Position numbers and translations under genes: made by a program
Source of the DNA: Minutocellus sp. GHC0000111
Lineage: Eukaryota
Direction of reading: 5' to 3'
DNA length: 64,000 bases
Assembly (NCBI GenBank): GCA_977018835.1
Contig: OZ361256.1
Span: 1,488,001 to 1,552,000 of the forward strand
Shown: piece by piece, positions 1 through 17,870 of the stretch
Numbering within the stretch: position 1 is the stretch's first letter
Layout: each line of letters begins with the position of its first letter
Notes under the pieces: generated by a model
What the model saw: the letters and a program-made list of their open reading frames with translations, nothing else
Database searches by the model: none
What the model was told of the DNA's origin: nothing

Positions 1-3000
1 CTCCGAGCGGCCCATCGCTCGACCGCCGACCCCTTCCGCTCCTCGGCCGTGGGTGCCACCAATAGCAGTGAAAGTGGTACCAGCACCAACCATGACCGTC
101 CGACCAGCTCGGGCAGCTCCTCCTCCGGCAGCATCGACGCAGGCGGTGGCGGTATGGGGATGGCAATGATGGAGATTGATACGCCCCTGGCGGTGGCCAA
201 TATGATGGCCAGCGGGGGACCCCCGCCGTTCACCCCCCGGTTGGCACGACGGTTGCTCACCGACGGATTGCTGCCGCTGGCCGGCGTCGGCGGTGGTATG
301 GGTGGTGGTAATGGTAGTGGTTGTGGTGGTATGGGTGGGAATGGCAATAATAACGAAGAGGAGGAGGAGCAGGAAGAGGATAACGACGATGTGGTCGGGG
401 AGCTCGTCCGCAGGTGCGTGGTGGAGTGCATACTGCCCTGCGCGGTGGTGGTCACGAGTGATCCGAATGCAACGTCTGCCGGTGCTGGAATGGGTGTTGG
501 CGTGGGCAACAACAACGTGAACATGGACGGGAGGAACTGCAACTCGGACATTGGCATCGACGTCCTGCTCCCCTCCTATCTGAATCGGTTGGTCGGCACG
601 GGCCATCGGCGGGCCCCCGCCATCCTCGACGCGCTGTGCGCCGTGCCCCGATCGGGATACAGGTTGCGTCCCCATAGGGCGGCCGCCGTGGCGGCGGCGC
701 TGGGAGAATTGTCCGATCTGTGTCCCACCGCCTTGACCGGATGCGTCGGCCCCGTGGCCGTGTCGGTACAAGAGGAGGGTGAGGAGGGGGATGACGCCAG
801 CGCTACGGGCAAGCCCAAGAAGACCAAGAAGGAGTCGAGCAAGAAGAATAACAAGGACTCGAACAGCAACAAGCAGAAGGATGGCGGAGGAAAGAACAAC
901 TCCAGCAACAAGAGCAAGGAGAATGACAATATCGACCGCATCACCAGCCTGACCGACGCCCTCCTGCGCTCCCTCCGGACGCTGACGACCGTCCACACCC
1001 AAGAGCTCGACTGCCTCCCACCCCTGGTGTACCAGCTGTGCCTCCTCCCCTCGAAGATTGAACGCGGATCCAGAGCCGCCGCCGGGGATGGCACGGGACG
1101 ATCGTCCTTTTTGGCGATGCCATCCAAGGCTGCTACCAGTGGTGGTAGTAGTGGTGGCGGCGGTGCTTCGACGGCAATGGTGGTGGCGGTATCGGACGTC
1201 ATCACGGTAGAGCTGCGCATCCGCATATTGGCCGGTATCGCCGACGTCTTTGATGGGCTGAGGGAGAAGGTCGACGTGGCAGCACGGGCTGCCGCCGAGG
1301 CATTGGCCAGCGCCGATTCGGCGGCTACTGCTGCTGCTGCCGCTGCAGGGCAGCAGCGTCGGGCGCTGGGCATTGACGCCGATGCCGTTCGGTGGGCGGT
1401 TGGAACATCGCTGAGTCATGTTGGTACGTACTGTTTGGTCCTTGATTCAGCCGACGACTTACAGTTATATCATTAATCTCTCATTCGTTTCATATTGGCA
1501 TTCCTCTCAACTCTCCAAACTCCGCGTTTATATCTTCCGCAATATGTTTGAACAGGAACTGGCCTCAGGGGAGATCCAGATTTGGTCAAGGCCGTTCTGC
1601 GACTCGTCAAGGGCGATATCCCCGCTTCCGTCCATGATATAGACTATTCATCTGCGCCCTTCCGCTACCTTCGGCTCACTCCCTTCCGCCTCTGTCTTGG
1701 TGTGACCGCGGCATCCGCCCTTCCTCGTACCCGAGCCACGGCACTGGAGGCCGTACGTGACCTCATCGTCGAGGAGCAAACCATCGCCACCAAGCGTTCG
1801 CAAAGCCCCTGGTTCAATGCCGTCGCCGGTGCATCCGTCCTACTTGCCGAGAAGGATCCCAACAATGAGCGTGTATCGGCCGAATTCCGTGATGGTTCTA
1901 CCCTGGGAAGTCTGGAGGGACGTGCCAAACGCAGTGACAAGGCTGGACGACACGTCTTTTCCTGTATCCAGTCCGTCGTTGGCTTTGCATCGTCCAAGGA
2001 TGGCATTGGTGCCGAGCTGACGGGGTTGATGCAAAGTCTTGTCAATTTGGGATTTCTCCTTGTGGACTGCGTAAAGAAGGACAGCCCAACCGTCACGTGC
2101 GTCGCCCCAACCTTTGGCGTTGCATCCTCGGTTATGAAGAAGCTATCCCGTGAAGGCAAGTGCCCGTTGGATGAGCTTCGCAATACCGGATCGAACGTAT
2201 CCTCCAAGGCCAATGAGGCTGCTGCCGATGTTGGACGGAGGATCCTTGCCTTCCTCTTTGTGACGGCTGGTTCCAAGGCCCATTCCGATACGATGTCGTC
2301 TCTCTCGTCCAACGCCGAAGTATCACCCCTTTGCAGATCCATCCTTCATACAGCCTCTGGCAAGTTTTGCGGCATGGCCCCCAATGCCGTTCAGCATTCC
2401 TTTCTGCTTCGAGATCTTGCTCTGGGAACCTTTGAGAGTCTCGGTGATGTTGCATCGTCGGCCATCACTGCTTTAGCTACCGATACGGCCCCGGATATTC
2501 TCTCCGCCAACTTCATTCCAACCATTATCAACTATCTATCCAACATTCCTGGTGGGGGGATGCCACCGGCTGTTGCCATCGCGTCTGTCGTCCCTGCGCT
2601 CAATGCAGTTCTGCATCATCAGTGCTGCCGACGTCGATACCGCGACGTTGAGGACAACGTCGACCATTGCTTTCTTTTGGGTAAGAAGGCCATCTTTTGC
2701 ACCGACCCCGAACGTCGAGCCGTAGCGGTCAACATTCTCTGTATGCTCATTGGCATCGTCGTTGTCTCCGGCAATACGCGAAGCTTCTCTCTGGGAAGCG
2801 GGGGGGCAACTTTGGACGAGATTCGGGGATATCTCCGCCGTTGCCTCACGCAGCACCAACCATCGGTAAGAATGGAAGTTTATTCTTCTCTGGTGGAGCT
2901 TCTGCCGTGTGGAGAAGATGCCAACGGTGAAGATTCGACCACTCCAAGTGCCTCGTTGGAAGGCGACACCACTCCGGTACCTATCGTCCGCAGGGGCAAG

Positions 3001-6000
3001 GCCAGAGTTGGCACCGCAATTTGTGATGTTGTTGCCGATATCCTTTCGTCGCAGTTGGAGCGATATGTCACCCCGGCGGAAGACAAGGCCGATAAGAAGG
3101 CTCGGAGGGATAGGGCGAAGAAGCACGGGTCGCAGCTTTCGCAGCCCATGTCTTCCGATGAAGATGAGAATGAGTCCGATGATGAGAAAGACGATGGGTC
3201 GACTTCTGATCCTCCCATTCGCTTCGAGTTGTGCCTGCAAGATGGAAAGCAGGCAGCAGTTGAACAGCCTCCAACCAAGAACGTCGCCAAGGGAAAGAAA
3301 GTTGACGGCAAGTCCAAGAAGGCACAGGGTCCAACTCTCATTGAAATTGCGAGAAATAAGATTGCCGAGCCCATCCCTTTTCTCTTGGCTTCGTGTTCCG
3401 AGGTGGTCGTTGTCCAAGCTGAGATGTCGAACTTCGATGCCGTGGCCGCCGATGAAGACCGGGTCAGCCCCAATGACGAGCTCAGCAAGGCCTTCGCTTC
3501 GCTGCGAAAGCGTGTGGCCAAATCGAAGCTTGATGACTACCTCGCGGCAGTCCAGAAGAAGCAGGCCGAGAACGACGATACCTCCGCCGAAGCCAAGAAG
3601 GAACGCACAGCGGGGCTTCTGGCAACATGCCTTCTCGTTGCCTCGGCGGCTGAAACGTTGATGGGAAGTGATGTGAAAGATGATACTTCCGGACGTGACC
3701 CTGGCGAAATCACCGAGCGACTCTTCCGCCTTCGGACCGACGCCGTGGACAAGGCAGCTACCATTCTCGCCACCCCGTCGGCCAAAGAGAAGAAGGCCCC
3801 AGCCGAGAAGGGCAAACCGACCAAGAAGAAGAAAAAGAAGATGAAAGCTGGAGAAGAGAACGACCATCCCAACCTCACCATCGATGATGATGTAGCAGCC
3901 CCCAAGGAGATCAAGAAGACTACTCTCGACAAGGCCCGCAAGGCCGTGGAGGACCAGATCAGTCAGATATGCCCCGCTAGCGACTACCAGTTTTTGGCCC
4001 ACTGCCTCCGCACTTACGGTGTGTCCGCTGAGGACGCCACTTCTCGTAGCCAGTTGACCTTCGGAGAAGACCAAAATCCGCAGACGCGCCTAACGGCAAA
4101 TATCCAGTTCCGTACCTTCATCCTCAACAAGTCCCTCCACCTCTTCGAACGCAGCGGCGTTGTCATCAAGGCCGGCCGTCGGTTTGATCCTGCTTCTATC
4201 GCTTGGAAGCACGAGGCAGACGACAATGTCCTTGCCCTCAAGACCGGCTTCATCGCCAGCTCCATGATGCTTGGATCACTTGCATTCTCCGAGTTTGCGT
4301 CCCACTGCTCGAAGATCAATCGAACTTCGATTGCTCAAGTAGACAAGGGCACCAACGATATCCCTCTCACCGAACTCTCGCTCGCTGTCGTTGTGAGGGC
4401 CATGCAGCGAATGACGGACGACCATCCAAATCACCAGATGAGCAAGGAGCGTCGCGCCTTCACACTTCTCATGACTATGTTCAACCGCACAGCGGCGGAT
4501 ATTCCCTCGACGAAGAAGACATTCCAGTTCTATGCCAAAGGCAAGGTGGCCCCGTCAAATCAACGCTCCATTTCCGCAGAATCTCTCGAGCTGCGGAATC
4601 ACTTGCTTGCTTTGGCTTCGCCTGTCCGTGAATATGAAGACAATGAGGGGCGCAAGATGAAACGAGGTGGGCTGCTCGCTGAGCTCCTTTCTCACTCAAT
4701 GGAGAACGAGGCTAGGGAATGTGTGAGACTCATAGCCTGCGCTGGTTCTGCTTGTAGCGACCCAAGTGTTCGTATGAGTATTGGTGCATCCATCCTTTCT
4801 TGCTGGGAGAAAAATGATGGCGCTTGGATCTCGCCGCTTGGCCTTGACCATCGCGACAGCATTGACATCGAAAGGCCTACTTTTGTCAGCCCGACGGTGG
4901 CGGTAGAGGCCTCAGTCCTCCTTGGAGGTCACCTCGATGGTGATACTCGAATGCCACTGCTTCCTTCAAAGGGTAGTGACAGTGATATCATCAAATCTAG
5001 GGCCACCTCCCTATTTCCCATCATGGCCTCTGATGATTGGCCGAAGCACCACCGCAAGGGCATCGAACAGCATCTCGACATCGACGACTGCGCCGTGGGC
5101 GTTGTGAAGAAACTCTCCATTGCGATGCTCGTTCGGTTGCAAATTTCCGCCTCCTTCAATGACGAGTTGGACGCGCCATCCAGAAAGCCTTGCAAGCTGT
5201 CAATCATTGATACTATCGCTGCGATCGAACCTCTCAAAGGTCTCACGAGACCAAGGGAACTTGGCTTTGTCGCATCGTCAGTCCAATCTGCTATTGACAT
5301 TGCCTTGACCGATGCCGACTACGTTTGTTTCAAGGTACTCCCTCATCTCAACGACCCCATGGTCACCGATCGGGCGATGGAGTATGTCGCAGGTCGACTT
5401 CTTGCCGTGGCGTGCACCGTCAGCAATGTCTCTGGAATCGCAGAGGACTGCGACGATAATGCTGCCTTTATGGCATCGCTTCTCAAGAGCACCAAGCGCG
5501 TTTACAGTACCTTCACGAAGCTTATACAGCTTCAGATGAAGAGTGATCTCACGAAACTTGCCTCGCCCCTTCAAAGCCTTTTGCTAGAGGAACTTTCCAC
5601 GACAATGACTCCGAGAACGATGTGCCTTCTCTTGGCAGCAACGGAACACGTCGAAGTTGGCGAACGAGCCGATGACGGCAAGCAGGCCAAGACCCTGACC
5701 GAGAAGCAGCTCAACGCCCAAGGAAAGGTTGCTTCCGAGGTTGTGTTCAACAAGGAGCGTCTCGATAGCTTCCTTTCTAAGGCCAGCAAGCAGCTCAAGA
5801 AGGCTGGCCTCGAAGACGAATCTGAGTGGTTGGAGGGCCACATCACCCGCTCCGACACGCGCTCGTTCAGGATCAGGACGAAAGAGATTGCAGCTGCCCA
5901 GGAGAGAGAAGCTCCCAGGAAGAAGGATAAGAAACGCAAGGCCAAGACCGAAGGCGGAACCAAAAAGAAGCCCAAGAAGAAAATCCATGCCAGTGAGGAT

Positions 6001-6156
6001 AAAGATGGCGAGGACGACCAGAGTATGGCCGACACCGCATCCGTAATGGACGCATCTATCGTAGGTGATGACGACGAAGTAATGGACGATTCGACGATGG
6101 GCGAAGAGGAACAGGATGATGACGATGATGACGATGAGGATGACGACGATGAGTAG
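1..6156 (+). CDS. FANCI: Fanconi anemia group I protein homolog, 5'-partial, one intron 1424-1555
   Basis: Frame is open from base 1. A GTACGT...AACAG intron joins ORFs 49..1476 and 1582..6156 in frame (HVG|TGLRGDPDLVKAVL). FANCI-like motifs: LPPLVYQL, LRRCLTQHQPSVRMEVY, SQxSQ cluster, TRSFRI before a basic/acidic tail. Confidence 0.75.
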
Positions 6157-6287: not shown

Positions 6288-8453
6288 CTATTCTATTATA
6301 GCTTCGCCTTCCTTTTCTATAAGCTTCTCAGCCTGATTAGTCTCCAACAACAGCTTGGCCCAATGACGTTCACTGATAACACCCGCGCCGAGGCATTCCT
6401 CGTCGTCCATGTTGTAAAAGACGCAGTACTGACCGGGCGCAAGGCCCTTGTCTTTGGTGTCCAAGTGAACGTTGCCGCTACCACCGCCAGCGTCAGTCAT
6501 GTCAAGTGTTAGCGTGCCGTTGACCATGGTCGGTCCGTGCCGAATCTTCATCGTAAATCTACCATCCTTCCATTGCTTGTCGCCACCATCTCTCTGAACG
6601 AGCCGTTCAGGTGGAGATCCTGCAACCCACGTGATATCCTCTACGTAAAAGTCGGAGCGGGCTTCCTCAAACGCCTCTTGGTCGTACTCGTTGGAGGCAA
6701 TCACAATATTCTTCTCTTGATCCTTGGCAACGATATACCACGGACCCTTGGCCGTTTCCTTGGGGTTCAATACCTTATCGATGCCCTTCCTCTGACCGAC
6801 GGTATGATACCACAAACCGTTGTGCCGTCCAATGACACGTCCGGTGGTGGCATCGACAATATCGCCGGGATTGGTGCCCAGATAGGCGTTGATAAATTCG
6901 TCGAACTTGACCTTCCCAAGAAAACAGAGACCCTGCGAGTCCGGTCGATTTCGATTGGGCAGCTGAAATTGCTGGGCTAGATCACGTACCTCCGACTTGA
7001 GGAAGGACCCGATGGGAAACTCGACTCTGGATAGCTGCTCTTGCGTCAGAGCGCAGAGAAAATACGTCTGGTCTTTGACCGGATCGGGAGCTCGGAGGAG
7101 ATGCATTTGGCGTTGTCCACTTTCGTCCTCGTCGCCTTTCACCAGCTGTGCATAGTGTCCAGATGCAACGTAGTCAAATCCTCTTCCGCCAATGGCATCG
7201 TAAAAGCAACCAAACTTGACCCGAGAATTGCACATAATGTCTGGATTGGGTGTACGGCCCTTCCGTGCCTCGTCGACGGTGTAGAAAATGACTCGATCCT
7301 TGTATTGATTTTGGAGCGACACGGTCTCCAACGGCACGCCGGCCTGGTCACATACGGCCTGGCATACCGAGTAGTCGTCCTCCCAGGGACACTGGCCGAG
7401 ATGCGACAGTTCATCTTCCAACCATATCTTGAGGTAAAATGCCGTCACGTCGTATCCCTCCCGAACCAAGAGGTTGAGGGCCACGGAACTATCGACGCCA
7501 CCAGAGAGGAGCATGGCCACGGTGGGATGTCGCTTTTCACCGTTATTTGCTGGAGCATTGCTTGGTTCGGCTGTGGCAGGACTCTCGGCAGACAATCCCA
7601 AGCTTTGACGAATCTGATTCTGAACGACAGTCGTCATGCTGGCCAGCCCGTCATTCCGTCCCGTCGAAAGGACCGTGCGCAGACCCAGGAGATCGGCAAC
7701 TGTATCTGGGTCCAGATTGAGAATGTCTTGGGCGGTCACCCTTCCATCACCCGACAAGGCATCCGATAACAGGGCAAGGAGGCCACGGCTCAAGAGAGCA
7801 TCGGCATCGCCGTCGACGACGATTCGGTACTTGGATAGGTTTGTATTAGTGGCATCATCACTACTTTTCACGGCAGTATCGTCAAGAGGCAGCAACGACG
7901 TCTGAACGTGCACCGTGGCGACACACCCGGGAACTCGCTCGCGATCCGATAAAAGGGATGGCTCCAATGAAGAATTGGCATCGCCGTTGGCGGAAGCAGA
8001 GGAGGCAAATTGCTGACCACGTTCCACAATGGCCAGGTTGATCTTCTTGGTGGTGGCAGCATCGGTTGCTTCGTCACTACCAGAAGCGCCGCCCAGAATG
8101 GTCTGCCTCACTCGATCGAATGAGGTTTGGAGCGAATCGTTTGCTTCTGTTGGGATACTTATGTCAGGAGTCCGATCGACAAATAGTGGCGTTGTTGAAT
8201 CGTCGTCATCATCTGTATGACTGCTGGCAGCGCTCCACATTACATGTCTTTGCTTTGGAGGGCGATATTGATGGCCAGAGGATACAGCGGGGGAAACCAA
8301 TCGGGGAACAAACGCCAGAACATGCACATGCGACCAATTGCAGACGCACACGCCCATCAAGGTCAATAAGATGGCAAGGCCACCATTGTGGGGTGAAGAA
8401 AAGCCAGTACGACGACGACGCTGACGCATCAACTTGGTCCTGTCGTTCGCCAT
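6288..8453 (-). CDS. mnmA: SufE domain + tRNA U34 2-thiouridylase MnmA fusion, probably plastid-targeted
   Basis: MnmA motifs SGGVDS, NPDIMCN, SGHYA, KDQTYFL, DSQGLCF, TVGQRKG, PGQ. Upstream SufE motifs RVPGC, DADALLSRGLLALL, LGLxxxLSxGRxDG. Signal peptide ends VLA|FVP. Start is uncertain; ATG 8453 chosen. Confidence 0.9.
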   Translation of the reverse strand: MANDRTKLMRQRRRRTGFSSPHNGGLAILLTLMGVCVCNWSHVHVLAFVPRLVSPAVSSGHQYRPPKQRHVMWSAASSHTDDDDDSTTPLFVDRTPDISIPTEANDSLQTSFDRVRQTILGGASGSDEATDAATTKKINLAIVERGQQFASSASANGDANSSLEPSLLSDRERVPGCVATVHVQTSLLPLDDTAVKSSDDATNTNLSKYRIVVDGDADALLSRGLLALLSDALSGDGRVTAQDILNLDPDTVADLLGLRTVLSTGRNDGLASMTTVVQNQIRQSLGLSAESPATAEPSNAPANNGEKRHPTVAMLLSGGVDSSVALNLLVREGYDVTAFYLKIWLEDELSHLGQCPWEDDYSVCQAVCDQAGVPLETVSLQNQYKDRVIFYTVDEARKGRTPNPDIMCNSRVKFGCFYDAIGGRGFDYVASGHYAQLVKGDEDESGQRQMHLLRAPDPVKDQTYFLCALTQEQLSRVEFPIGSFLKSEVRDLAQQFQLPNRNRPDSQGLCFLGKVKFDEFINAYLGTNPGDIVDATTGRVIGRHNGLWYHTVGQRKGIDKVLNPKETAKGPWYIVAKDQEKNIVIASNEYDQEAFEEARSDFYVEDITWVAGSPPERLVQRDGGDKQWKDGRFTMKIRHGPTMVNGTLTLDMTDAGGGSGNVHLDTKDKGLAPGQYCVFYNMDDEECLGAGVISERHWAKLLLETNQAEKLIEKEGEAIIE

Positions 8454-9350
8454 GGTGGCAGGAGATTGTGTCCGCGCTGAAAGGGTAGAATTACGTATCA
8501 CAAAGGGTTCCAAGTGATCAGGCGCGTCGTCTCGACTACTGCCATCGTCCTCTTGGCTGCCAAGCCTTCGCCTCTGGCGGCTGCGAGACGGGCTGAGGCA
8601 CGCAGAAGACATCCCCATCATGGCCGGCCTTAAAAAAAATGGAGCGACGCGAGAAAATGAAGAAAAAAGGCATGCAATCGGCTGACGGCCAGACGATAAC
8701 AAATTTTTTCACGGGGAGTGTGCGGAAAGTCTGGTGTCGTTCAAGATTTCCATTTGATGTCATTCGGTGTCGAAATCTTCGCGTGGGCTGTTTTGCCGAC
8801 GGTCAATCCCATCACTTTTTGGACAGCCTCCGAGCCGGAGGGAGGTTGCTGGCGCGGCTGTGCATGCCTCTCCACCGCCCAAGAGAAGATACTGATACAA
8901 CACTCACTAATAGGTGTGATTGAACAGCGCGTTGTGCTGCACTGCACCGGATTTTCCCGGTATCTTTTGTCTATATTCGAAAAACCAGCACATCTCGTGT
9001 TCGGTAGAGCAGCAGCAGGGGCAGGAGCAGATCCGAGGTCACGACGAATCATCGAATCTTCCCCCGCCCCCACAGAGAGTGACCACTGCAAGAAGGCAGA
9101 CACACGATCCATTGAATTTACGTTTGCTTTTTTTAGAAATAAAAACGACAGAATGGAGGACCGCGCATTGCAGGGGAGAAGGCGGAGGCGGACCGCCGGC
9201 GGCAGGCCAAACAACTGCCGCGGCAGCAGCAGCGAAGGCGACGGCGGCGAATGTCCGATTTCGTCACATTCACAGGGAGGAGGAGGAATCTTGCCAAAAG
9301 CAGGAAGGCACCGCCGTCGGACTTTTGGGAGTGAAAAACGCCGGACCATA

Positions 9351-12300
9351 ATGATGAATTGCCTGGTGGTCATCACCTTGCTGCTGGCGGTGCTCGCGAA
9401 TGAGAGACTGATTGTGCAAGCGCAAGAGCAAGAGGTTCCTGCCGTCCCAGGTATCATTCCCGAAGAAGAAGCGGCGGCGGAGGTCAGCGGTAATGCCAAT
9501 CAGCAGTGCACGGTGCCCAAGCGGGTCGATCCGTCGGTATCGCCCTCGGTCGTGTCTTCCACTGCTACCGATGAGTCCGAACCCATCAAAACCTACCAGG
9601 TCGGAGTCCTGGCCATCCGCGGCTTCGACGCCGCCTACGCCGAATTCAACGCCACCTTCTCCACCTACCTCACGTTGACGGCCGGCCGGGCCTTTTCGCC
9701 CCCGATTGCCTTCCAGCTCCGTCCCCTCAACTTCATCAGCCTGTTCGGCGACGTCCAGATCCAACCTCTGCCGGCCGTCGACTTCATCTACGTCAACCCC
9801 TCCGCCTACGCGTGCATCGAGTCGGAATTCAGCGCCCACTCCCTCGTTTCCAAAATATCCCAGCGCAAGGTCGGCGGCAACACTTTCGACTTGACCAAAT
9901 TCGGCGGCGTCATCGCCGCCCGGTCCGACCGGACCGACATCCAAACCTTGCAGGACATTCGCGGCAAGGTCGTGGCCGCCGCCTCCATCTCCGGTCTGGG
10001 CAGCGGACAGATGCAGTTCCGCGAGCTGCAGCGCGCGGGCATGTCCTACATCAACGCCCCCCGCCAGCTGGTCTTCACGTCCAACCAGGGCAAGGTCGTC
10101 AACGGCGTGCTGGACGGCAAGTTCGACGTGGGGTTCATCCGCACCGATCAGATCGAGCGGACCAAGAACGCCAGCGGGGTGCTGGTCGATCCCGCCGACT
10201 TTCGCGTCCTCCAACCCCAGCCCGATCTGGCCATCGATGGGGTGCCCTTCCCGTTCGAGTCCAGCACCCCCCTCTATCCCGAGTGGAATTTGGCCAGCCT
10301 GGGCCATGTCAGCGACGAGGTCGCCAGCGAGGTGCAGAGTGCCATGAGGGCGCTGGCCGGCCATGCCGACGTCGGATATGCCATATTGGCATGCTACGAG
10401 GAGTGTGCCGGTGTCGGAGGAGAGCAACAGCAAGAGACCGACGGTGCCGGTGCCCGGTGTCGGAGTTGTCGACGGAACCGAGCTGGAGGGATGCAAGGCC
10501 GCCTTCCGGGCCGATGCCGACCTGACCGTCGGGGGACGGTGCGATACCACCGTCGAGGTGGCGCTGGCGGCCGCCGAGGCCAAGACCAACGGGAAGTACA
10601 CCGGGTAAGTTTTTGGGTGGGGAGGTGTTGTATTTTATGAGAGGGAGTTTTGCGTCTGTGGATATTGGCCCTATTCCTTTTCAACTTATCTCCCCCGTTT
10701 TATCGCGCCCATTCTGCATTCTCCCCTCCTCAATTCCCATAACAGCTGGCGGTCCACCCTGTCCTACATGGAGCTACGGAACATGCAGGTCGAGACCAAC
10801 TTCATCCGACGGAACGCCACCTCCGGTCTGCAGCAGTGCATCCGCTCGTCCAAGATCTACGATGCCATCGTTTGTCCTCCGGGACACTTTCGCCGCCGCG
10901 AGGAGGAGGTCCTGGCCGGGTGTGAGCTGGCCGGTCTGCCCTGCGATGAGGGATTTCAGTGCATCTGCCGCCCGTGCGTCAAGAGTTTCGACGTGGACGT
11001 GTTCCCGGTATTTGACGATGGATCGCTCTTCCGGGATGCCGACAGTACGGGGCAGACGACAACTGCGGCTTCGGCCGCGGTAGACGACGAAGAAAGTCCC
11101 GTGGGATGCCCCAAAATGGAGCTGTGCGGGTCGATTGAGCAGGGCAAGCCCATCCGCTTCCGTGCGATTGACAACAAAAAGAGGTCCGGCATTGATATGT
11201 CTGTCTTTGTCCACGCCGGCCAAAGCGAGACTAGAGAAATTCAAGCGACGCCCGTTCTTCCTGTTGGAAATGAGACAGAATCGTTCATGTACGACTTTGT
11301 TATCTCTGAACCACGCGTTGGCGTTGTTGTTCTTGAAATTCTTGCCGGTGGTGAGCAGATTCCCGAGTCACCTCTGCGTCTCGAGGTTACGCCCCGGAAT
11401 TGTGCCGCTGACAACGACGACCCTCTCAGCGTTGCTCAAGCTGATGGATCCTGTTCGTGTGCTGCAAACTCGGTAGATATTGGAGGTCAGTGTGTGTCTT
11501 ATGCGATCCTTCTGCCGGCAATAATCCTACCTCTGTTGGCCATTGCTGCGGTTGGCATCTTCTTCTACATCAAACAGAAGCACAAAGCGGCTGATTCGGT
11601 ATGGCACGTCAAGGAGAAGGAGTTGGAATTCGATGACCCTCCTCAAATTATTGGGCGTGGTACGTTCGGCTTGGTCCTTCTTGCCGAATACCGAGGAACA
11701 CAGGTGGCAGTAAAGAGAGTTATTCCCCCGAAGCAACGGAGGCCTACTGATAGTGGCCGGTCTAGTTCTTCATCGACAAACGGCACCTCTTCTCAGTCAA
11801 TCAATAAAAGATATTCCTTTCTTCCCAATGCATCGCGGTCTAGAGATTCCATTATTGCTCCAGGAACGACAAATCGTCTTGCGTCGTTGGAGGGTATTGC
11901 CGAAGGGGAAGACGAGAGCCATGCCGATTCAAGCCATGCGACTTCATCTGCTGGCAAGCGAAAGAAAATGAGACGACATAGCTCTGGGTTCTCTATTCCT
12001 TCTCGACGAGCCAGTGATATGTCCTTACTAAGTGATGACGAGGCAGACGATGCTAAGAAAAAGACCACTGGTTCAATGGAGATTCCATTTGGAAGAAGGA
12101 ACTCGGACAATGGCGGCATTACGGCGAGACGGAGAAGTTCTGGTGGTGGTGGTGTTGTGGCGGGGATGGCAAAGAGACGAAATTCGAATTTCGGCCGTAA
12201 AGGAAGTGACGAAATGGTCGATGACAAGCAAAGGAGGCGTTTGTCGGCATACAATGCTTTCGACATGACGGATGATCCCGAAGCTGGCAAATCCAGCGGT

Positions 12301-14348
12301 GCTTTCAATGATTCCAGCAGCGGCAATTTCAACCAGAGCAGCGGTGATTTTTCCAGCAATGGTATGGGATCTGGCGTCCTTGGCAACGCTTCAGGAGCCT
12401 TTGATTCGTCTGCTATATTTGACAGCCAAGCCCTGGGCACTTCCTCTGGAGATGCACTGTCTTCGATGCAAATTATGCCATCGAACAATGACAACAAGAG
12501 GAAGGGGAGGAGACCAAGTGACACGTCGGGAAGGCGACGTTCGGACGCATCTTCTGGCTCCGGTGGTTCCTATTCTGGATCTTTTGCAAAGAAGGGCAAC
12601 TGGCTTTTACGAAGCATGGGCCTTGCCTCCAAGGATGAATACGCGAAGCTCAAGGCCGACTTTATTGTGGAGATGCGCCATTTGTCGAAATGTGAGTACA
12701 TTGTCGGCGTATAATCATCCTTCTGATGTGTTTTATGTCCTTTATATCGCTCGATCGCTCATCTATGTGCATTTCTCTGTCATTTCTCTGTCACCATTAC
12801 TAGTGCGCCACCCTTGCATCACAACGGTAATGGGTGCTGTCATCGAAAAGGGCGTCGAACCGATGCTTATCATGGAGTACATGGACATGGGATCCCTCCA
12901 TGATATTCTCCACAACGAAAGTTTCCCGCTCGATGGAGATTTGCTGCTTCCGATTCTTCGGGATATTGCCCAGGGCGTCCGGTTCTTGCACGCAGCCAAG
13001 CCCCAGGTCATCCACGGCGACTTGAAGGCGCACAATGTCCTCGTTGATGGTAAATTCAGGGCAAAGGTTGCCGACTTTGGTCTCTCTGCGAAGAAGATTA
13101 TTGGCGCCACAGGCACACCATTCTGGTGAGAACTAAAATACGTATCAGCTCTATAAAAATCATTGCATTTGCGTCTTGGATTGCCGCTCTAACTCACTTG
13201 ATTTATTTATTTTCTGTTCAATTTCCAGGATGGCTCCGGAATTGCTCCGAGGTGAGAGTCGAAACACTGCTGCATCAGACGTCTATTCATTTGGCATTAT
13301 CCTCTACGAAGTTTATAGTCGTAGAGACCCCTACGAGGGCGAAAATGCTGTCTCTGTGCTCCGCGATGTCGCCGACCGCAAAATCAACAAGCGGCCACCA
13401 GTACCGCCAGCGTGTCCTCTCAAGGTCCAAGCCATCATGTCTGACTGCCTTGCTGGCAACCCCAAGGATCGTCCACATGTGGAAGAGATTGACCTTCGTC
13501 TGAAACGGCTGAGTGTAGAAAATGTGGAACCGGGAGAAATGCACCTATCTCATCAAGCCCGGAAGCATCTCAAGGCACAGCGGGGAGAAGATTTGATCTC
13601 CAAAATGTTCCCCAAGCACATTGCCGACCAGCTACGACAAGGTCGTAAGCCCGAACCTGAAAGCAAAGAAATGGTCACGATTTTCTTCTCGGATATAGTT
13701 GGGTTTACGGATTTGTCTTCGAGACTTCCGGCCGAAAAGGTCAGCGACATGCTCGACAGATTATACCTTCGGTTTGACGCCCTTGCAGACAAGCACGATG
13801 TCTTCAAGATCGAAACGATTGGAGATGCCTTTATTGGCGTTACAAATCTCGTCAAGGATCAAGATGATCATGTAAAACGCATTGCAGAGTTTGCCATTGA
13901 CTGTATTGAGGCTGCCAGGCAGACTCAGATATGCCTGGATGATCCGAGTATGGGTCATGTCATTATTCGTGTCGGATTGCACTCAGATCCCGTCATCGCG
14001 AGTGTCGTTGGGTCTAGACTTCCGAAATATACAATTCTCGGTGATTCGGTCAATACAGCCGCAAGGATGGAAAGTAACTCCCTCCCCGGCAGAATTCAGT
14101 GTAGTGAACAATCGGCTCGATTGCTGGCAAAGCAGAGCCCTGCTATCCCGATCGCTCCAAGAGGAGAAATCTCCATCAAGGGCAAGGGTGAAATGGTCAC
14201 CTTTTGGATCAACGAGGTCAGTTCAAAATCTCGTAAGCATTTGCTCCCCTCAGATGAGTCCAAGAAGGACGTGAAGAAATCTCCCCCAAGAGCAACGAAA
14301 GAAACCGCGCCGGAAGCGCAAGATCGTGATATCGAGGCACAGAATTAA
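9351..14348 (+). CDS. Receptor-type protein: signal peptide, phosphate/phosphonate-binding (PhnD-like) ectodomain, Cys-rich/Ig-like region, TM, protein kinase, class III (guanylate-type) cyclase
   Basis: Introns 10605-10745, 12692-12803 and 13126-13228 (all GT-AG, frame-restoring). One extra C at 10453-10455 shifts the frame. Kinase motifs GRGTFG, VAVK, HGDLKAHN, DFG, APE. Cyclase motifs FSDIVGFT, KIETIGD, GDSVNTAARMES. Alternative start 9153. Confidence 0.85.
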
Positions 14349-14405: not shown

Positions 14406-17400
14406 TCAGGCGGCAACCTTGGGTTGACTGCTCCCTTCCTTCTCAAATTCCTGTGGCGGAAGTCCAAAGGCCGCTCTCAGGGTCCTGCTGAGTGCTCGCT
14501 CTCCAAGTCTGGCAATTATTTCACTCGTTATGCGTTGTACTCGAGGCTCTTGCGAGAGCTTCCTCACCAAGGGAACAAACTTGGATGGGTCTGTTCGACT
14601 GCCTCTCGCTCCGAGGAGGAGAGCTATTCGCCAAAACCGCTGCATCGATGGAGTAGGTTCTGGCAGAGCCTTACCTAGGCTTTCTCTTATTTCCTTGCCA
14701 ACGCCCTCAACACTTCTGTCTGCTTCTTCGGCGCTGGCGTTTTCGATTATAGTCTGGAGTGATTGCAGGGCATTTGCAACGCCGGCTTCGTCGTTGGTGA
14801 GAAGAGCTCGAGATGCATCCACCACATAAGACATTGTCTCTGATCCAAGTGAGTCTGCACCTTCGACCAGTTGATCTGCCAAGTCATTAAGAAGCTGCTC
14901 GCCGTCGTCAGATATCAAATAGTCGCTGAGCAAATCGAGGGCAAGCGACACATCGTAGTCTTCGGTCTCACTGGCTTCCTCCAACAAACCCTCGAGCCGA
15001 GACCAGCGAATATGACCATCACTAGTGAAAGCAAGCCTTCGGAATGCCTCTTGCAGCTCATCTTGAGGATCAGTAAGAACTCGGCTGGCAATGAAAGGAT
15101 ATGCTTTGCTGATAATTCTTGACGATGGATCAACCTGAATGGCCAGGCCTTCAAGAACTCCAAGACATCTGATGATGGCGATGTAGAAGGGCGGAAGGGA
15201 GAAGGGGTATTTATACATGATGTCGCCGAGCTTTGAGACGACGTTTTTGAAGTTGAGCTCATTGACGGATGCACTCAAAACGTCGGGCAGTGCGTCCTCC
15301 AAAGCAAGCTCGATTGGGCGAAGATCTTGATCCTCCGGGATGAACCCGAGCTTGACATACAATCGCGCCAGTTCGCCCCAATCTCTATTGACAATGTGAA
15401 CGACAGCCAGTAAAAAGCCGTTTCGTTGTTTTGCAGCAGCATAGCTCATCATGCCAAAATCAAGGTAGCACAACCTTCCATCCTCACAGGCGAGGAGGTT
15501 ACCACCATGAGGATCGGCATGAAAGAATCCATTGTCGAGGATCTGTCGCAACGAGCACTGCACGAGGGTATCGACGAGTTTTTTCCGGTCCAAGTTATAT
15601 GCTTCGAGCATATCAATATCGGTCAGACGAAACCCATCGACCCACTCCATCGTCAGTACCTTGGACGTTGTGAGTTCACTGTAGACCTTTGGCACAAAAA
15701 CGTCGGTGACGCCAGAGTAGAGCTCGTTGAAACGTTGAGCGTTGGCCGCCTCGGCGACATAGTCGATCTCTCTGTAAATGAGTTCACCAAAATCACCGAT
15801 AATGGAGCTGAAATCGATGTCTCTGTTGAGGAGTGCAGCGACCCGGTTCCACAGTGCATTGGACCACCACCTCAGAACGTACAGATCCAGAGCAATAATC
15901 TCCTCACACTTTGGTCGCTGGATTTTGATGGCCACGAGTTCGCCATTCGAGAGCAAGCGGGCCTTGTAGACTGACGACAGAGATTGTGCATGGCAAAGGC
16001 AGGAAAGACAAAACACTCATCAGAAAGATGTATGGGAAAACAAACATGCGCTGAATTGCCGCAACGAACGTACCTTGTCCGATCGAAGCCGCGGCAACAG
16101 GATCCGTGCCGATAAGTTCAAATAATTCTCCAAATTCCACGCCCAATTCCTCTTCGACCGTGGCAAACGCCTTCTCGTTGGGGAAGACTGGTACATTGTC
16201 CTGCAAATTCTGCAGCTCATCCAAATATTCCCGGGGCAGCAAGTCCGACCGCGACGACAGCGCCTGACCCGCCTTGATGATGGCCGGTCCGAGACCGCTA
16301 ATCGTCTGCAGGAGCTGCTTGGCCCTGGACTTGCGATTGCGCTTCTCGTTGCCCGTCACAACGTCCAGTACCACACCGGCCGCCCACGCCCCGAGGGGCA
16401 AGGCAATCTGAACGTTGCGGATGACCCACCGATTGGGTTGTCGGAACAGAACCTTCTCGGCCACGGCCGGATCGTACTTGCGCAACGGTTCGGCCACCTT
16501 GACGACGCGCTGCCAACGGGTGACGAAATCGCCCGACCCCCCTTCCAGGTTGCCGTTGTACCAGAAGGAGTCGGGGAGGACAATTTCCTTCCCGTCCTTG
16601 GAATATTCCACGGGAGCACCCTGCATCTGCATGTTGCCGTTGATGGGCGCGGCGCTCATTTTGCCATTGATGACCTTGCTGGCCTCCTTCTGCAGCCTCT
16701 TTTGGGTGATGGTCGGCATGGTTCTGGCACCGGTCCCACCAAATGCCGCCCTTTTCTTTGCGCTTTTGCCGTTGTCCTTACCGCCTACCGATGCGACAAT
16801 ATCACTCTGGCCATCCTTGCCGACACTTTCCGCCATCAATCCGGAAGCCTGCGCCTCGACGAAGGTACCCGTAGGATCCAAGAGAAACTCATCCAACATC
16901 CTCCTGGCCTTCTCGAGTCGGGCCTGACTTCTCATTCGTTCCCTGGCTGATCGGCCGGCGTACGATGTCGAGGCGATGTGAGGCTGGTGCTTGTGCCTAG
17001 TGGTTGATTTGGAAGTGCTTGAAGACGATTTCTTTGTACTTGTATCTTCGGCGGTTGAGCTCATTCGTCGACTTGCCGTTGCTGCTGTTGGTTGTGTGGC
17101 ATAAATGTTATTATCATGTGTCGGTTTGTCGAATGTAATGTGCCTTCTGCCGACCACATTGCTTGAAGGAATCACAAAGGCACCAACGTCAACAGCGATG
17201 CATAGAACTGCAGCAAAAATATATAATTGATGTGCCTGCCGCCGAGGAGGGGACGTGCCATTCCAGGTTGAAGCAGATGCCGAAGATCGGCTTCGGTTGG
17301 GTGCTGGTCGATCGTTACTGCGTGTCATCTCTTGGGGCTGTGCGAGTTCCGACAACTCACTGCCGCTGCAGCCACGCCCTCTGACCCTCCTCCTTGCAGG

Positions 17401-17415
17401 TGGGAGGTCATTCAT
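14406..17415 (-). CDS. ABC1/UbiB-family atypical kinase, probably plastid-targeted; intron 15971-16073
   Basis: LGPAIIKAGQALSSRSDL, PVAAASIGQ|VYKA across the intron, VAIKIQRP, FHADPHGGN, LDFGMM. Signal ends VGA|FVI. Start codon uncertain. Confidence 0.9.
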
Positions 17416-17870
17416 GCTTCTCTGATTGGATTAGCTATGCCGACTTGTTGCCGGCCTCTCTCCATCGTCTTCATGCCATGGTTCGGCCGGTTCGGCGCCA
17501 GCTGGCCAGATTTCTGAAGTACATACGCCTGTATGTTCAGGGTTCTTGTACTCTTTACAGCGAACCTTTTTCTCGAGCCACAGCGAACCCAAAAGTACGG
17601 CACCGGCGAGGCAAGCAAGCAATGCGAAGCAAGCAGGTCGTGGTGGCGCCTTGAAGCAAGAGCCACGACCGATCCCATGGTCGTGAAAGGTCTTGCTCCC
17701 GCCTTGTCAGTCGCTTCTTGGTCTTGGCGTTACAATCCGATTCACATCCATCTTCAAACTCCCTCCTCAAAGTGCTCATAAAATGAACAAGTCAAACTCA
17801 AGCAATCAAATCCAACTCGATCAAATCACAAGTCAAACGAAACAAGTCAAACCAATCAGATCACAGCATC

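What the first reader, a model, noticed from the sequence alone, without database searches (positions are those of the whole stretch)
6288..8453. Plastid-targeted SufE-MnmA fusion: tRNA thiolase with a built-in sulfur carrier
Seen: one intron-free ORF carries a signal + FVP transit start, a complete SufE-like domain (about 8135-7600; acceptor Cys in RVPGC at 7925-7923) and a full MnmA (from about 7523, DxxC...C type). Known: SufE accepts persulfide from the desulfurase SufS; MnmA gets sulfur via IscS/Tus or a dedicated desulfurase; plants have SufE-BolA and SufE-NadA fusions. Inference: a SufS -> SufE(cis) -> MnmA relay for plastid tRNA s2U34, or in-cis Fe-S cluster supply. I do not recall this fusion being characterised.
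Basis: partly seen in the sequence, partly recalled or inferred. Interest (0 to 1): 0.78.

Follow-up and report, generated by a model that had tools for sequence, protein, structure and literature searches.

The report
Red-plastid SufE-MnmA fusion, diatom copy
This diatom gene joins a sulfur-carrier domain (SufE) to the tRNA-thiolating enzyme MnmA and likely hands sulfur from one to the other in the plastid; the same fusion is common in red algae and diatoms and is already published for malaria and Toxoplasma parasites, so it is sound but not new.

Summary
Observation confirmed. One uninterrupted 721-aa frame (8453-6288, minus strand) holds a signal-plus-Phe presequence, a SufE domain (Pfam 48 bits, cut-off 27; SufE fold) and a complete D-type MnmA (above NCBIfam cut-offs). 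One RNA contig covers the presequence, SufE, the junction and most of MnmA. The fusion is the usual form in diatoms (8 named taxa) and red algae (7 named taxa). The SufE residues matching E. coli C51, D74 and R119 (here C177, D218, R266) never vary: 209/209, 216/216 and 216/216. The halves form congruent clades, apart from one fragment. No SufE lies near 80 related bacterial mnmA genes. I found no biochemical test of it, and no paper on algal copies. Best reading (0.6): a private in-cis persulfide shuttle for plastid tRNA s2U34; main rival: in-cis Fe-S cluster building, as in plant SufE3. The scan found this fusion before in other genomes (8 earlier findings). New member of a known kind.

The parts
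6288..8453 (-). SufE-MnmA fusion gene, one frame, 721 aa from Met1 (true start may be Met9 at 8429)
   Evidence: RNA contig 6620-8616 without a joint
8313..8384 (-). Hydrophobic signal-peptide-like segment (aa 24-47), predicted cleavage at VLA|F
   Evidence: sequence; own hydrophobic + [AGSC]F rule met here and in 77 of 99 homologues against 10.9 expected from shuffles; no SignalP or ASAFind run
8154..8312 (-). Transit-peptide-like stretch starting at Phe48 (FVP), low-confidence and coil in the model
   Evidence: (pLDDT under 50 over aa 1-104); diatom Phe+1 rule recalled, from no call
7599..8144 (-). SufE-like domain (about aa 104-285; Pfam match aa 159-279 = 7979-7617), with insertions
   Evidence: Pfam; profile hits to solved SufE and CsdE, E 2.5e-14; model pLDDT 89, Foldseek top 12 ranks all SufE/CsdE-type, TM(target) 0.63-0.72
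7923..7925 (-). Cys177, equivalent of E. coli SufE Cys51 (persulfide acceptor)
   Evidence: alignment; Cys in 209 of 209 fused proteins with a residue there, 9 gaps
7800..7802 (-). Asp218, equivalent of E. coli SufE Asp74 (contacts SufS His343)
   Evidence: 216 of 216
7656..7658 (-). Arg266, equivalent of E. coli SufE Arg119 (needed for turnover with SufS)
   Evidence: 216 of 216
7527..7598 (-). Flexible linker (about aa 286-309), poorly conserved, with a 12-base in-frame indel against sequencing runs
   Evidence: pLDDT under 50 at aa 290-305; 4-7 of 23 identical in distant homologues
6912..7523 (-). MnmA HUP catalytic domain (aa 311-514): PP-loop SGGVDS 317-322, Cys355, Asp405-x-x-Cys408, Cys510
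   Evidence: Foldseek TM(target) 0.83-0.84 to solved MnmA
6696..6899 (-). MnmA PRC-barrel domain (aa 519-586)
   Evidence: Pfam PF20259, E 2.5e-19
6375..6653 (-). MnmA C-terminal beta-barrel (aa 601-693)
   Evidence: Pfam PF20258, E 2.6e-13

Best explanation
The gene encodes one protein with a SufE domain in front of a complete D-type MnmA; it is predicted to be imported into the plastid, where its SufE cysteine (Cys177) would likely take a persulfide from the plastid desulfurase SufS and pass it in cis to the MnmA active site, which would put the sulfur on U34 of plastid tRNA-Lys, -Glu and -Gln. Shown here: the fusion, its presence in RNA libraries, the intact motifs, and the invariance of Cys177, Asp218 and Arg266 across diatoms and red algae. 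From established MnmA chemistry: U34 is adenylated at the PP-loop and the sulfur enters through the Asp405/Cys408/Cys510 site. Inferred and untested: plastid location, SufS as donor, transfer in cis, and whether the sulfur reaches the tRNA as a Cys510 persulfide or through a labile [4Fe-4S] cluster (disputed for D-type MnmA generally). The domain would be a private shuttle that replaces the Tus relay of E. coli, separate from the free SufE(-BolA) that feeds SufBCD.
For: Domains and fold. Conservation: Cys, Asp and Arg are invariant in 209/209, 216/216 and 216/216 fused proteins while the mean column conservation is 0.52. In the 35 fusions retrieved by an MnmA-only query, so not selected for SufE similarity, the counts are 33/33, 35/35 and 34/34. 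These are three of the four SufS-contact regions of E. coli SufE, and Cys51 and Arg119 are the two universally conserved residues (PMC11408855). Presequence pattern in 77 of 99 homologues against 10.9 expected. Apicomplexan counterparts localise to the apicoplast (PMC10219651, PMC9420914). Plasmodium genetics fit a private shuttle: deleting sufS or mnmA destroys the apicoplast, deleting free sufE, sufC or sufD does not, and free SufE is still needed for Fe-S supply (PMC10219651). Linker: median 60 aa from the Arg motif to the PP-loop (n=183), low-confidence in the model, so the domain could swing between partners.
Against: I found no biochemical test in any organism. B. subtilis MnmA, which has no SufE domain, rescued Plasmodium mnmA loss on its own (1 of 4 attempts), and the authors favour direct SufS-to-MnmA transfer (PMC10219651). 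Related bacterial MnmA works without a neighbouring SufE: 0 of 80 loci have one nearby, and only 9 of 49 genomes hold any SufE match, so the domain is not chemically required by this MnmA type. The fourth SufS-contact region (first helix, E. coli W20/E21) has diverged: the conserved Tyr column of free SufE aligns in only 35 of 218 fusions and not in this protein. Invariance shows the domain is active; it does not show where the sulfur goes. No SufS gene of this organism was available to examine.
Confidence: 0.6

Rival explanations
1. The SufE domain supplies sulfur to build or repair a [4Fe-4S] cluster on Asp405/Cys408/Cys510 of its own MnmA half, as the SufE domain of plant SufE3 does for its NadA half, and is not the carrier of the sulfur that ends up in tRNA.
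For: Arabidopsis SufE3 needs its SufE domain to reconstitute the NadA cluster with NFS2 (review PMC5890173, passages). D-type MnmA can bind a labile cluster through 2 Cys + 1 Asp (PMC13066941 passages; PMC11784392 passages). The same invariant residues would be expected. An oxygen-producing plastid would favour local repair (inference).
Against: Whether the cluster matters in D-type MnmA is disputed. In Plasmodium, loss of SufC or SufD leaves the MnmA-dependent apicoplast intact, which excludes scaffold-made clusters but not assembly in place. No iron-delivery part is fused.
Confidence: 0.2
2. The SufE domain mainly docks and activates SufS, or passes sulfur in trans (to another MnmA molecule or to SufB); sulfur reaches the MnmA site directly from SufS and the fusion only raises efficiency.
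For: SufE proteins stimulate SufS about 17-fold in Plasmodium; a SufE-less Bacillus MnmA could be served in the apicoplast (PMC10219651). The full-length model has pTM 0.60 and a low-confidence linker, which says nothing on domain contact.
Against: A pure docking role would not need an invariant Cys (209 of 209). In Plasmodium the fused domain does not replace free SufE for Fe-S supply, which argues against general service to SufB.
Confidence: 0.14
3. The protein serves mitochondria (as the Mtu1 equivalent) or both organelles, so the donor would be an IscS/Nfs1-type enzyme and not SufS.
For: Automatic names call it tRNA-5-taurinomethyluridine 2-sulfurtransferase. Location was not measured, and the start codon is uncertain.
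Against: Signal + Phe pattern in 77 of 99 homologues; apicomplexan counterparts are in the apicoplast; SufE pairs with SufS-type enzymes.
Confidence: 0.04
4. The fusion is an artefact of two adjacent genes, or the SufE half is a decaying remnant.
For: SufE score is low (48 bits, against about 100-138 for near-full-length free eukaryotic SufE domains) and the fused domains sit on a long branch.
Against: One frame; one RNA contig across the junction; 47 of 47 and 120 of 120 listed homologues carry both domains; key residues are invariant.
Confidence: 0.02

Closest known systems
Apicoplast MnmA of Plasmodium falciparum (PF3D7_1019800; Swift et al. 2023, PMC10219651) and Toxoplasma gondii (TGGT1_309110; Yang et al. 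2022, PMC9420914)
   Same: Targeting peptide + SufE-like domain + D-type (C-DxxC-C) MnmA in the same order, in a red-derived plastid; the same relay was proposed. An Apicomplexa cluster is the second-best ESM Atlas hit (0.96).
   Different: Those proteins are longer (about 1084 and about 1600 aa). I did not hold their sequences, so orthology and conservation of the SufE Cys in them were not tested here; Figure 3-supplement 8 was not visible.
Red-algal SufE-MnmA proteins in public databases (e.g. Porphyridium purpureum KAA8497046.1, Rhodosorus marinus, Gracilariopsis chorda)
   Same: Same architecture and motifs; both halves group with the diatom proteins.
   Different: Primary-plastid transit peptides; the first SufE helix is closer to free SufE. 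Annotated as MnmA only; no paper found on them.
Arabidopsis SufE3 (SufE-NadA) and SufE1 (SufE-BolA)
   Same: A plastid SufE domain fused in front of a client domain; in SufE3 it serves the client in cis with NFS2 (PMC5890173). Free SufE/SufE-BolA proteins are the nearest unfused hits of this domain.
   Different: The client is a tRNA thiolase, not quinolinate synthase or BolA. The fused domain forms its own diverged clade.
E. coli SufE / CsdE and D-type MnmA (E. coli IscS-TusABCDE-MnmA; B. subtilis YrvO-MnmA)
   Same: Fold and catalytic residues of both halves.
   Different: Separate proteins; the carriers are Tus proteins or none. The domain here is below the SufE and CsdE equivalog cut-offs. 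The MnmA half is closest to a CPW[ED]-type bacterial group (Dependentiae, Patescibacteria, Ignavibacteria, spirochaetes and others), whereas cyanobacteria are reported to have C-type MnmA (PMC7025502).

Membership tests
MnmA (tRNA 2-thiouridine(34) synthase) | Score above curated equivalog cut-offs | tested here: met
   PRK00143 341.8 against 284; TIGR00420 340.8 against 236.95
MnmA (tRNA 2-thiouridine(34) synthase) | Three domains (HUP, PRC barrel, C-terminal barrel) and PP-loop SGGxDS | tested here: met
D-type MnmA | C-DxxC-C motif | tested here: met
   C355, D405-x-x-C408, C510; definition in PMC7025502
MnmA (tRNA 2-thiouridine(34) synthase) | Forms s2U34 on tRNA-Lys/Glu/Gln | not testable with these tools
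   needs an assay
SufE-like sulfur acceptors (PF02657) | Pfam score above gathering cut-off and SufE fold | tested here: met
   48 bits against 27; Foldseek top hits SufE/CsdE
SufE-like sulfur acceptors (PF02657) | Universally conserved Cys (Ec C51) and Arg (Ec R119) | tested here: met
   C177 and R266; invariant in fusions
SufE-like sulfur acceptors (PF02657) | First-helix SufS contact (Ec W20/E21, region A) | tested here: inconclusive
   helices are modelled but the sequence does not align with free SufE in this protein or most fusions
SufE-like sulfur acceptors (PF02657) | Accepts persulfide from and activates SufS | not testable with these tools
   needs an assay; no SufS of this organism was available
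Bacterial SufE / CsdE equivalogs | NCBIfam cut-off for the stand-alone protein | tested here: not met
   22 against 160 (SufE), 28.8 against 136.4 (CsdE); filed as a SufE-like domain, not as these equivalogs
Apicoplast-type SufE-MnmA fusion (Swift 2023, Yang 2022) | SufE-like domain N-terminal to D-type MnmA in one chain | tested here: met
Apicoplast-type SufE-MnmA fusion (Swift 2023, Yang 2022) | Plastid location | tested here: inconclusive
   presequence pattern here and in 77 of 99 homologues by a crude rule; location not measured
Apicoplast-type SufE-MnmA fusion (Swift 2023, Yang 2022) | Orthology with the apicomplexan proteins (one fusion event) | not tested
   no identified apicomplexan sequence in my trees; only the Atlas similarity 0.96

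The most novel reading that the evidence does not exclude
The red-algal ancestor gave a non-cyanobacterial D-type MnmA its own copy of plastid SufE, creating an obligatory single-chain SufS -> SufE -> MnmA sulfur route that was passed on to diatoms and apicomplexans. The route would run apart from Fe-S assembly, would explain why free SufE is dispensable for apicoplast upkeep, and the compact algal proteins would let the persulfide-versus-[4Fe-4S] question for D-type MnmA be tested with a single Cys mutant.
Probability: 0.4. Interest if true: 0.55.

Novelty: new member of a known kind. Interest (0 to 1): 0.3.

Why it matters
The fusion and the relay idea are already in print for apicomplexan parasites, so this copy is no discovery of a new architecture. 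What it adds is a usable handle. Swift et al. could not build expression plasmids for the AT-rich Plasmodium gene; this intron-free diatom gene and the 560-640 aa red-algal ones should be easier to express (inference). The invariance of Cys177, Asp218 and Arg266 across more than 200 fusions makes an active SufE domain far more likely than one homology model could show. A test would say how red-type plastids, including the apicoplast, route sulfur to tRNA, and would bear on the open question whether D-type MnmA uses a persulfide or a cluster.

Tried and rejected
Own genome: none is held, so free SufE, SufS, Tus-like carriers and a mitochondrial Mtu1 of this organism could not be looked for; the window itself holds no second SufE or MnmA frame. 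Complex prediction of the SufE domain with the MnmA half was not available, so domain docking is open. ESM Atlas on the SufE part alone gave only sub-0.9 SufE clusters, a lead only. Atlas rows for green algae and plants show at most three families, so they do not show that SufE is absent there; green-lineage absence was not tested. Bacterial precursor: no fusion or neighbouring sufE in 80 loci (flanks up to 4 kb, some shorter; scan covered 17 of 64 parts; the HMM found 9 of 10 control SufE loci). A crude desulfurase motif scan flagged 5 frames, not followed and not used. A second, independent fusion: fragment P0232 groups with free SufE in both trees, but one clade of all fusions is not rejected (AU p 0.242), so it is not claimed. 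Eight rows were dropped from the first SufE tree by my extraction rule; five were added back. MnmA-only long hits P0262 and P0275 proved to be N-truncated fusions. RNA contigs stop at 8608-8616 in three runs, but of one study, so no transcript start is claimed; uncovered stretches in single runs are no evidence. Supplements of PMC10219651: 12 of 36 files were searched, no hit; the figure supplement on the SufE-like domain was not seen and may already show the conserved Cys. Paper searches 'MnmA + diatom' (6 listed, none on this by title or abstract start) and 'SufE + cysteinyl-tRNA synthetase + dinoflagellate' (0) gave nothing.

Full report
Observation. The minus-strand frame 8453-6288 gives 721 aa with no internal stop, inside a stop-to-stop frame of 806 aa. 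Pfam finds SufE at aa 159-279 (48 bits, cut-off 27) and the three MnmA domains at 311-514, 519-586 and 601-693. Both general MnmA equivalog models are passed; the bacterial SufE and CsdE equivalogs are not. The closest named relatives are diatoms, so the window is taken to be diatom DNA; this is inferred. Neighbours are unrelated in function: a FANCI-like gene, a phosphonate-binding/kinase/cyclase gene and an ABC1 kinase.

It is one gene. Of 11 runs listed, 7 are RNA. I laid 3 RNA runs of one metatranscriptome study and 1 run of unrecorded kind. No joints were listed. One RNA contig of 2009 nt covers 6620-8616, through presequence, SufE, linker and most of MnmA, and a second (6783-7828) also bridges the junction. 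Contigs of RNA libraries can include DNA, so this is support, not proof, of transcription; complete transcript-derived ORFs with both domains are also on record for relatives (MMETSP names). All 4 runs carry 12 more bases in the linker than the window. The start is open: three close relatives begin at the Met9 equivalent, and ATGs lie in frame upstream at 8621, 8618 and 8612.

The SufE domain is real and looks active. A profile of the domain hits solved SufE and CsdE at E 2.5e-14 to 6e-10 and aligns C177, D218 and R266 with E. coli C51, D74 and R119 (positions counted from the printed alignment). The model of the domain (pLDDT 89) returns SufE/CsdE-type chains as its top 12 Foldseek ranks, TM(target) 0.63-0.72; the full-length model gives MnmA at TM(target) 0.83-0.84. 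Among 377 proteins held at that point, 218 had both domains by my HMMs (fragments included). The Cys column has C in 209 of 209 with 9 gaps, Asp and Arg 216 of 216 with 2 gaps each, against a mean column conservation of 0.52. The 35 fusions found with an MnmA-only query give 33/33, 35/35 and 34/34, so this is not a product of searching with SufE. In the E. coli SufS-SufE structure these residues mark three of four contact regions, and R119A blocks turnover (PMC11408855, passages and section 8 read). The fourth region, the first helix, has diverged: Pfam starts at profile position 23, and the Tyr column of free SufE aligns in 35 of 218 fusions, not in this one.

Distribution. All 47 hits of the SufE-region search and all 120 listed hits of the alignment search carry both domains. 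Named diatoms: Pseudo-nitzschia multistriata, Seminavis robusta, Cyclotella cryptica, C. atomus, three Thalassiosira and Attheya. Named red algae: Porphyridium purpureum, Rhodosorus marinus, Purpureofilum apyrenoidigerum, Bangiopsis sp., Gracilaria domingensis, Agarophyton chilense, Gracilariopsis chorda. Most hits are unnamed. A hydrophobic stretch followed by [AGSC]F occurs in 77 of 99 N-termini against 10.9 expected from shuffles (a crude rule of mine; the diatom Phe+1 signal is recalled knowledge). The nearest unfused SufE relatives are eukaryotic SufE and SufE-BolA proteins. In a SufE tree 36 of 37 fused rows lie on one branch (100/99; 8 rows dropped by extraction); with five of these added back, 18 of 19 do, and one clade of all 19 is not rejected (AU p 0.242). 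MnmA halves of 28 fusions form one branch (SH-aLRT 100) against 36 bacterial proteins; no plant, green-algal, cyanobacterial, mitochondrial or identified apicomplexan row was included, so one origin is suggested for red algae and diatoms only. The closest bacterial MnmAs are unfused (85 of 120 listed lack SufE; two of these are truncated fusions), have no SufE in the fetched flanks (0 of 80 loci; control 9 of 10), and 9 of 49 of their genomes, mostly MAGs of unknown completeness, hold any SufE match. Cyanobacteria are reported to carry C-type MnmA (PMC7025502, passages), so this D-type enzyme is probably not of endosymbiont origin (inference).

What is in print. Yang et al. [quoted passage not shown] Swift et al. 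[quoted passage not shown] Five searches found no test of the domain and no paper on algal copies; subscription papers are mostly outside the library. This scan has 8 earlier findings of the fusion or its derivatives in at least 4 other genomes; they gave me the Toxoplasma paper and the red-algal lead, both checked here.

Mechanism. Best reading (0.6): SufS loads Cys177, the domain swings on its linker (median 60 aa from the Arg motif to the PP-loop, n=183) and delivers sulfur to the MnmA site for s2U34. Plasmodium genetics fit: SufS and MnmA are needed to keep the apicoplast, free SufE, SufC and SufD are not, and free SufE is still needed for Fe-S supply. In E. coli SUF, SufS is not known to pass sulfur to the scaffold without a SufE or SufU (bioRxiv 10.64898/2026.05.18.725997, part 1 of 5 read), so a private SufE is a natural adaptor for a SufS-only compartment (inference). 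Against: Bacillus MnmA alone rescued the Plasmodium mutant once in 4 attempts and the authors favour direct transfer; bacterial relatives lack the domain; the first helix has drifted. Main rival (0.2): in-cis cluster building as in Arabidopsis SufE3 (review PMC5890173, passages), plausible because D-type MnmA can bind a labile cluster, a disputed point (PMC11784392 and PMC13066941, passages; PMC8053098 seen in a search listing only). Docking, activation or trans supply: 0.14. Mitochondrial role: 0.04. Artefact or remnant: 0.02. Whether the two domains can touch was not modelled.

Verdict. A real, conserved, probably plastid-directed SufE-MnmA fusion. The architecture and the relay hypothesis are published for apicomplexans; the algal range and the invariance of the SufE catalytic residues appear not to be, within the searches named. 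New member of a known kind; interest 0.3.

Noticed in passing
proteins P0194, P0387, P0388 (one 90% cluster, not in the window): A eukaryotic SufE domain fused in front of a complete cysteinyl-tRNA synthetase (Pfam SufE + tRNA-synt_1e + CysS_C), in three members from three sources including a transcript ORF. One paper search gave 0 hits and no earlier scan finding holds all the words. Organism unknown; may be a real fusion worth its own look.
   Followed up: partly
protein P0232 (291 aa fragment): A SufE-MnmA fusion whose SufE half scores and groups like free SufE (108.8 bits): possible domain replacement or second fusion; AU test does not reject a single clade (p 0.242).
   Followed up: partly
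proteins P0022, P0025, P0028, P0029, P0033, P0069: Homologues of 1140-1190 aa with a SET domain in front of an internal signal + Phe stretch and SufE-MnmA; either read-through of an adjacent gene in one lineage or a real larger fusion.
   Followed up: no
proteins P0009, P0010, P0013, P0016: Some diatom-like homologues carry an extra stretch of 150-250 aa without a Pfam label between the presequence and the SufE cysteine.
   Followed up: no
window 7585-7589: All 4 runs laid, and database protein P0002, have 12 more in-frame bases in the linker than the window: allele or assembly difference, harmless to the frame.
   Followed up: partly
window 8700-14348 (+): Divergent neighbour with phosphonate-binding periplasmic domain, protein kinase and adenylate/guanylate cyclase domains over several frames: a receptor-like kinase-cyclase.
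   Followed up: partly
window 1552-6156 (+) and 14406-17430 (-): A FANCI-like gene converges on the fusion gene's 3' end, and an ABC1 atypical kinase lies further on; no functional link seen.
   Followed up: partly
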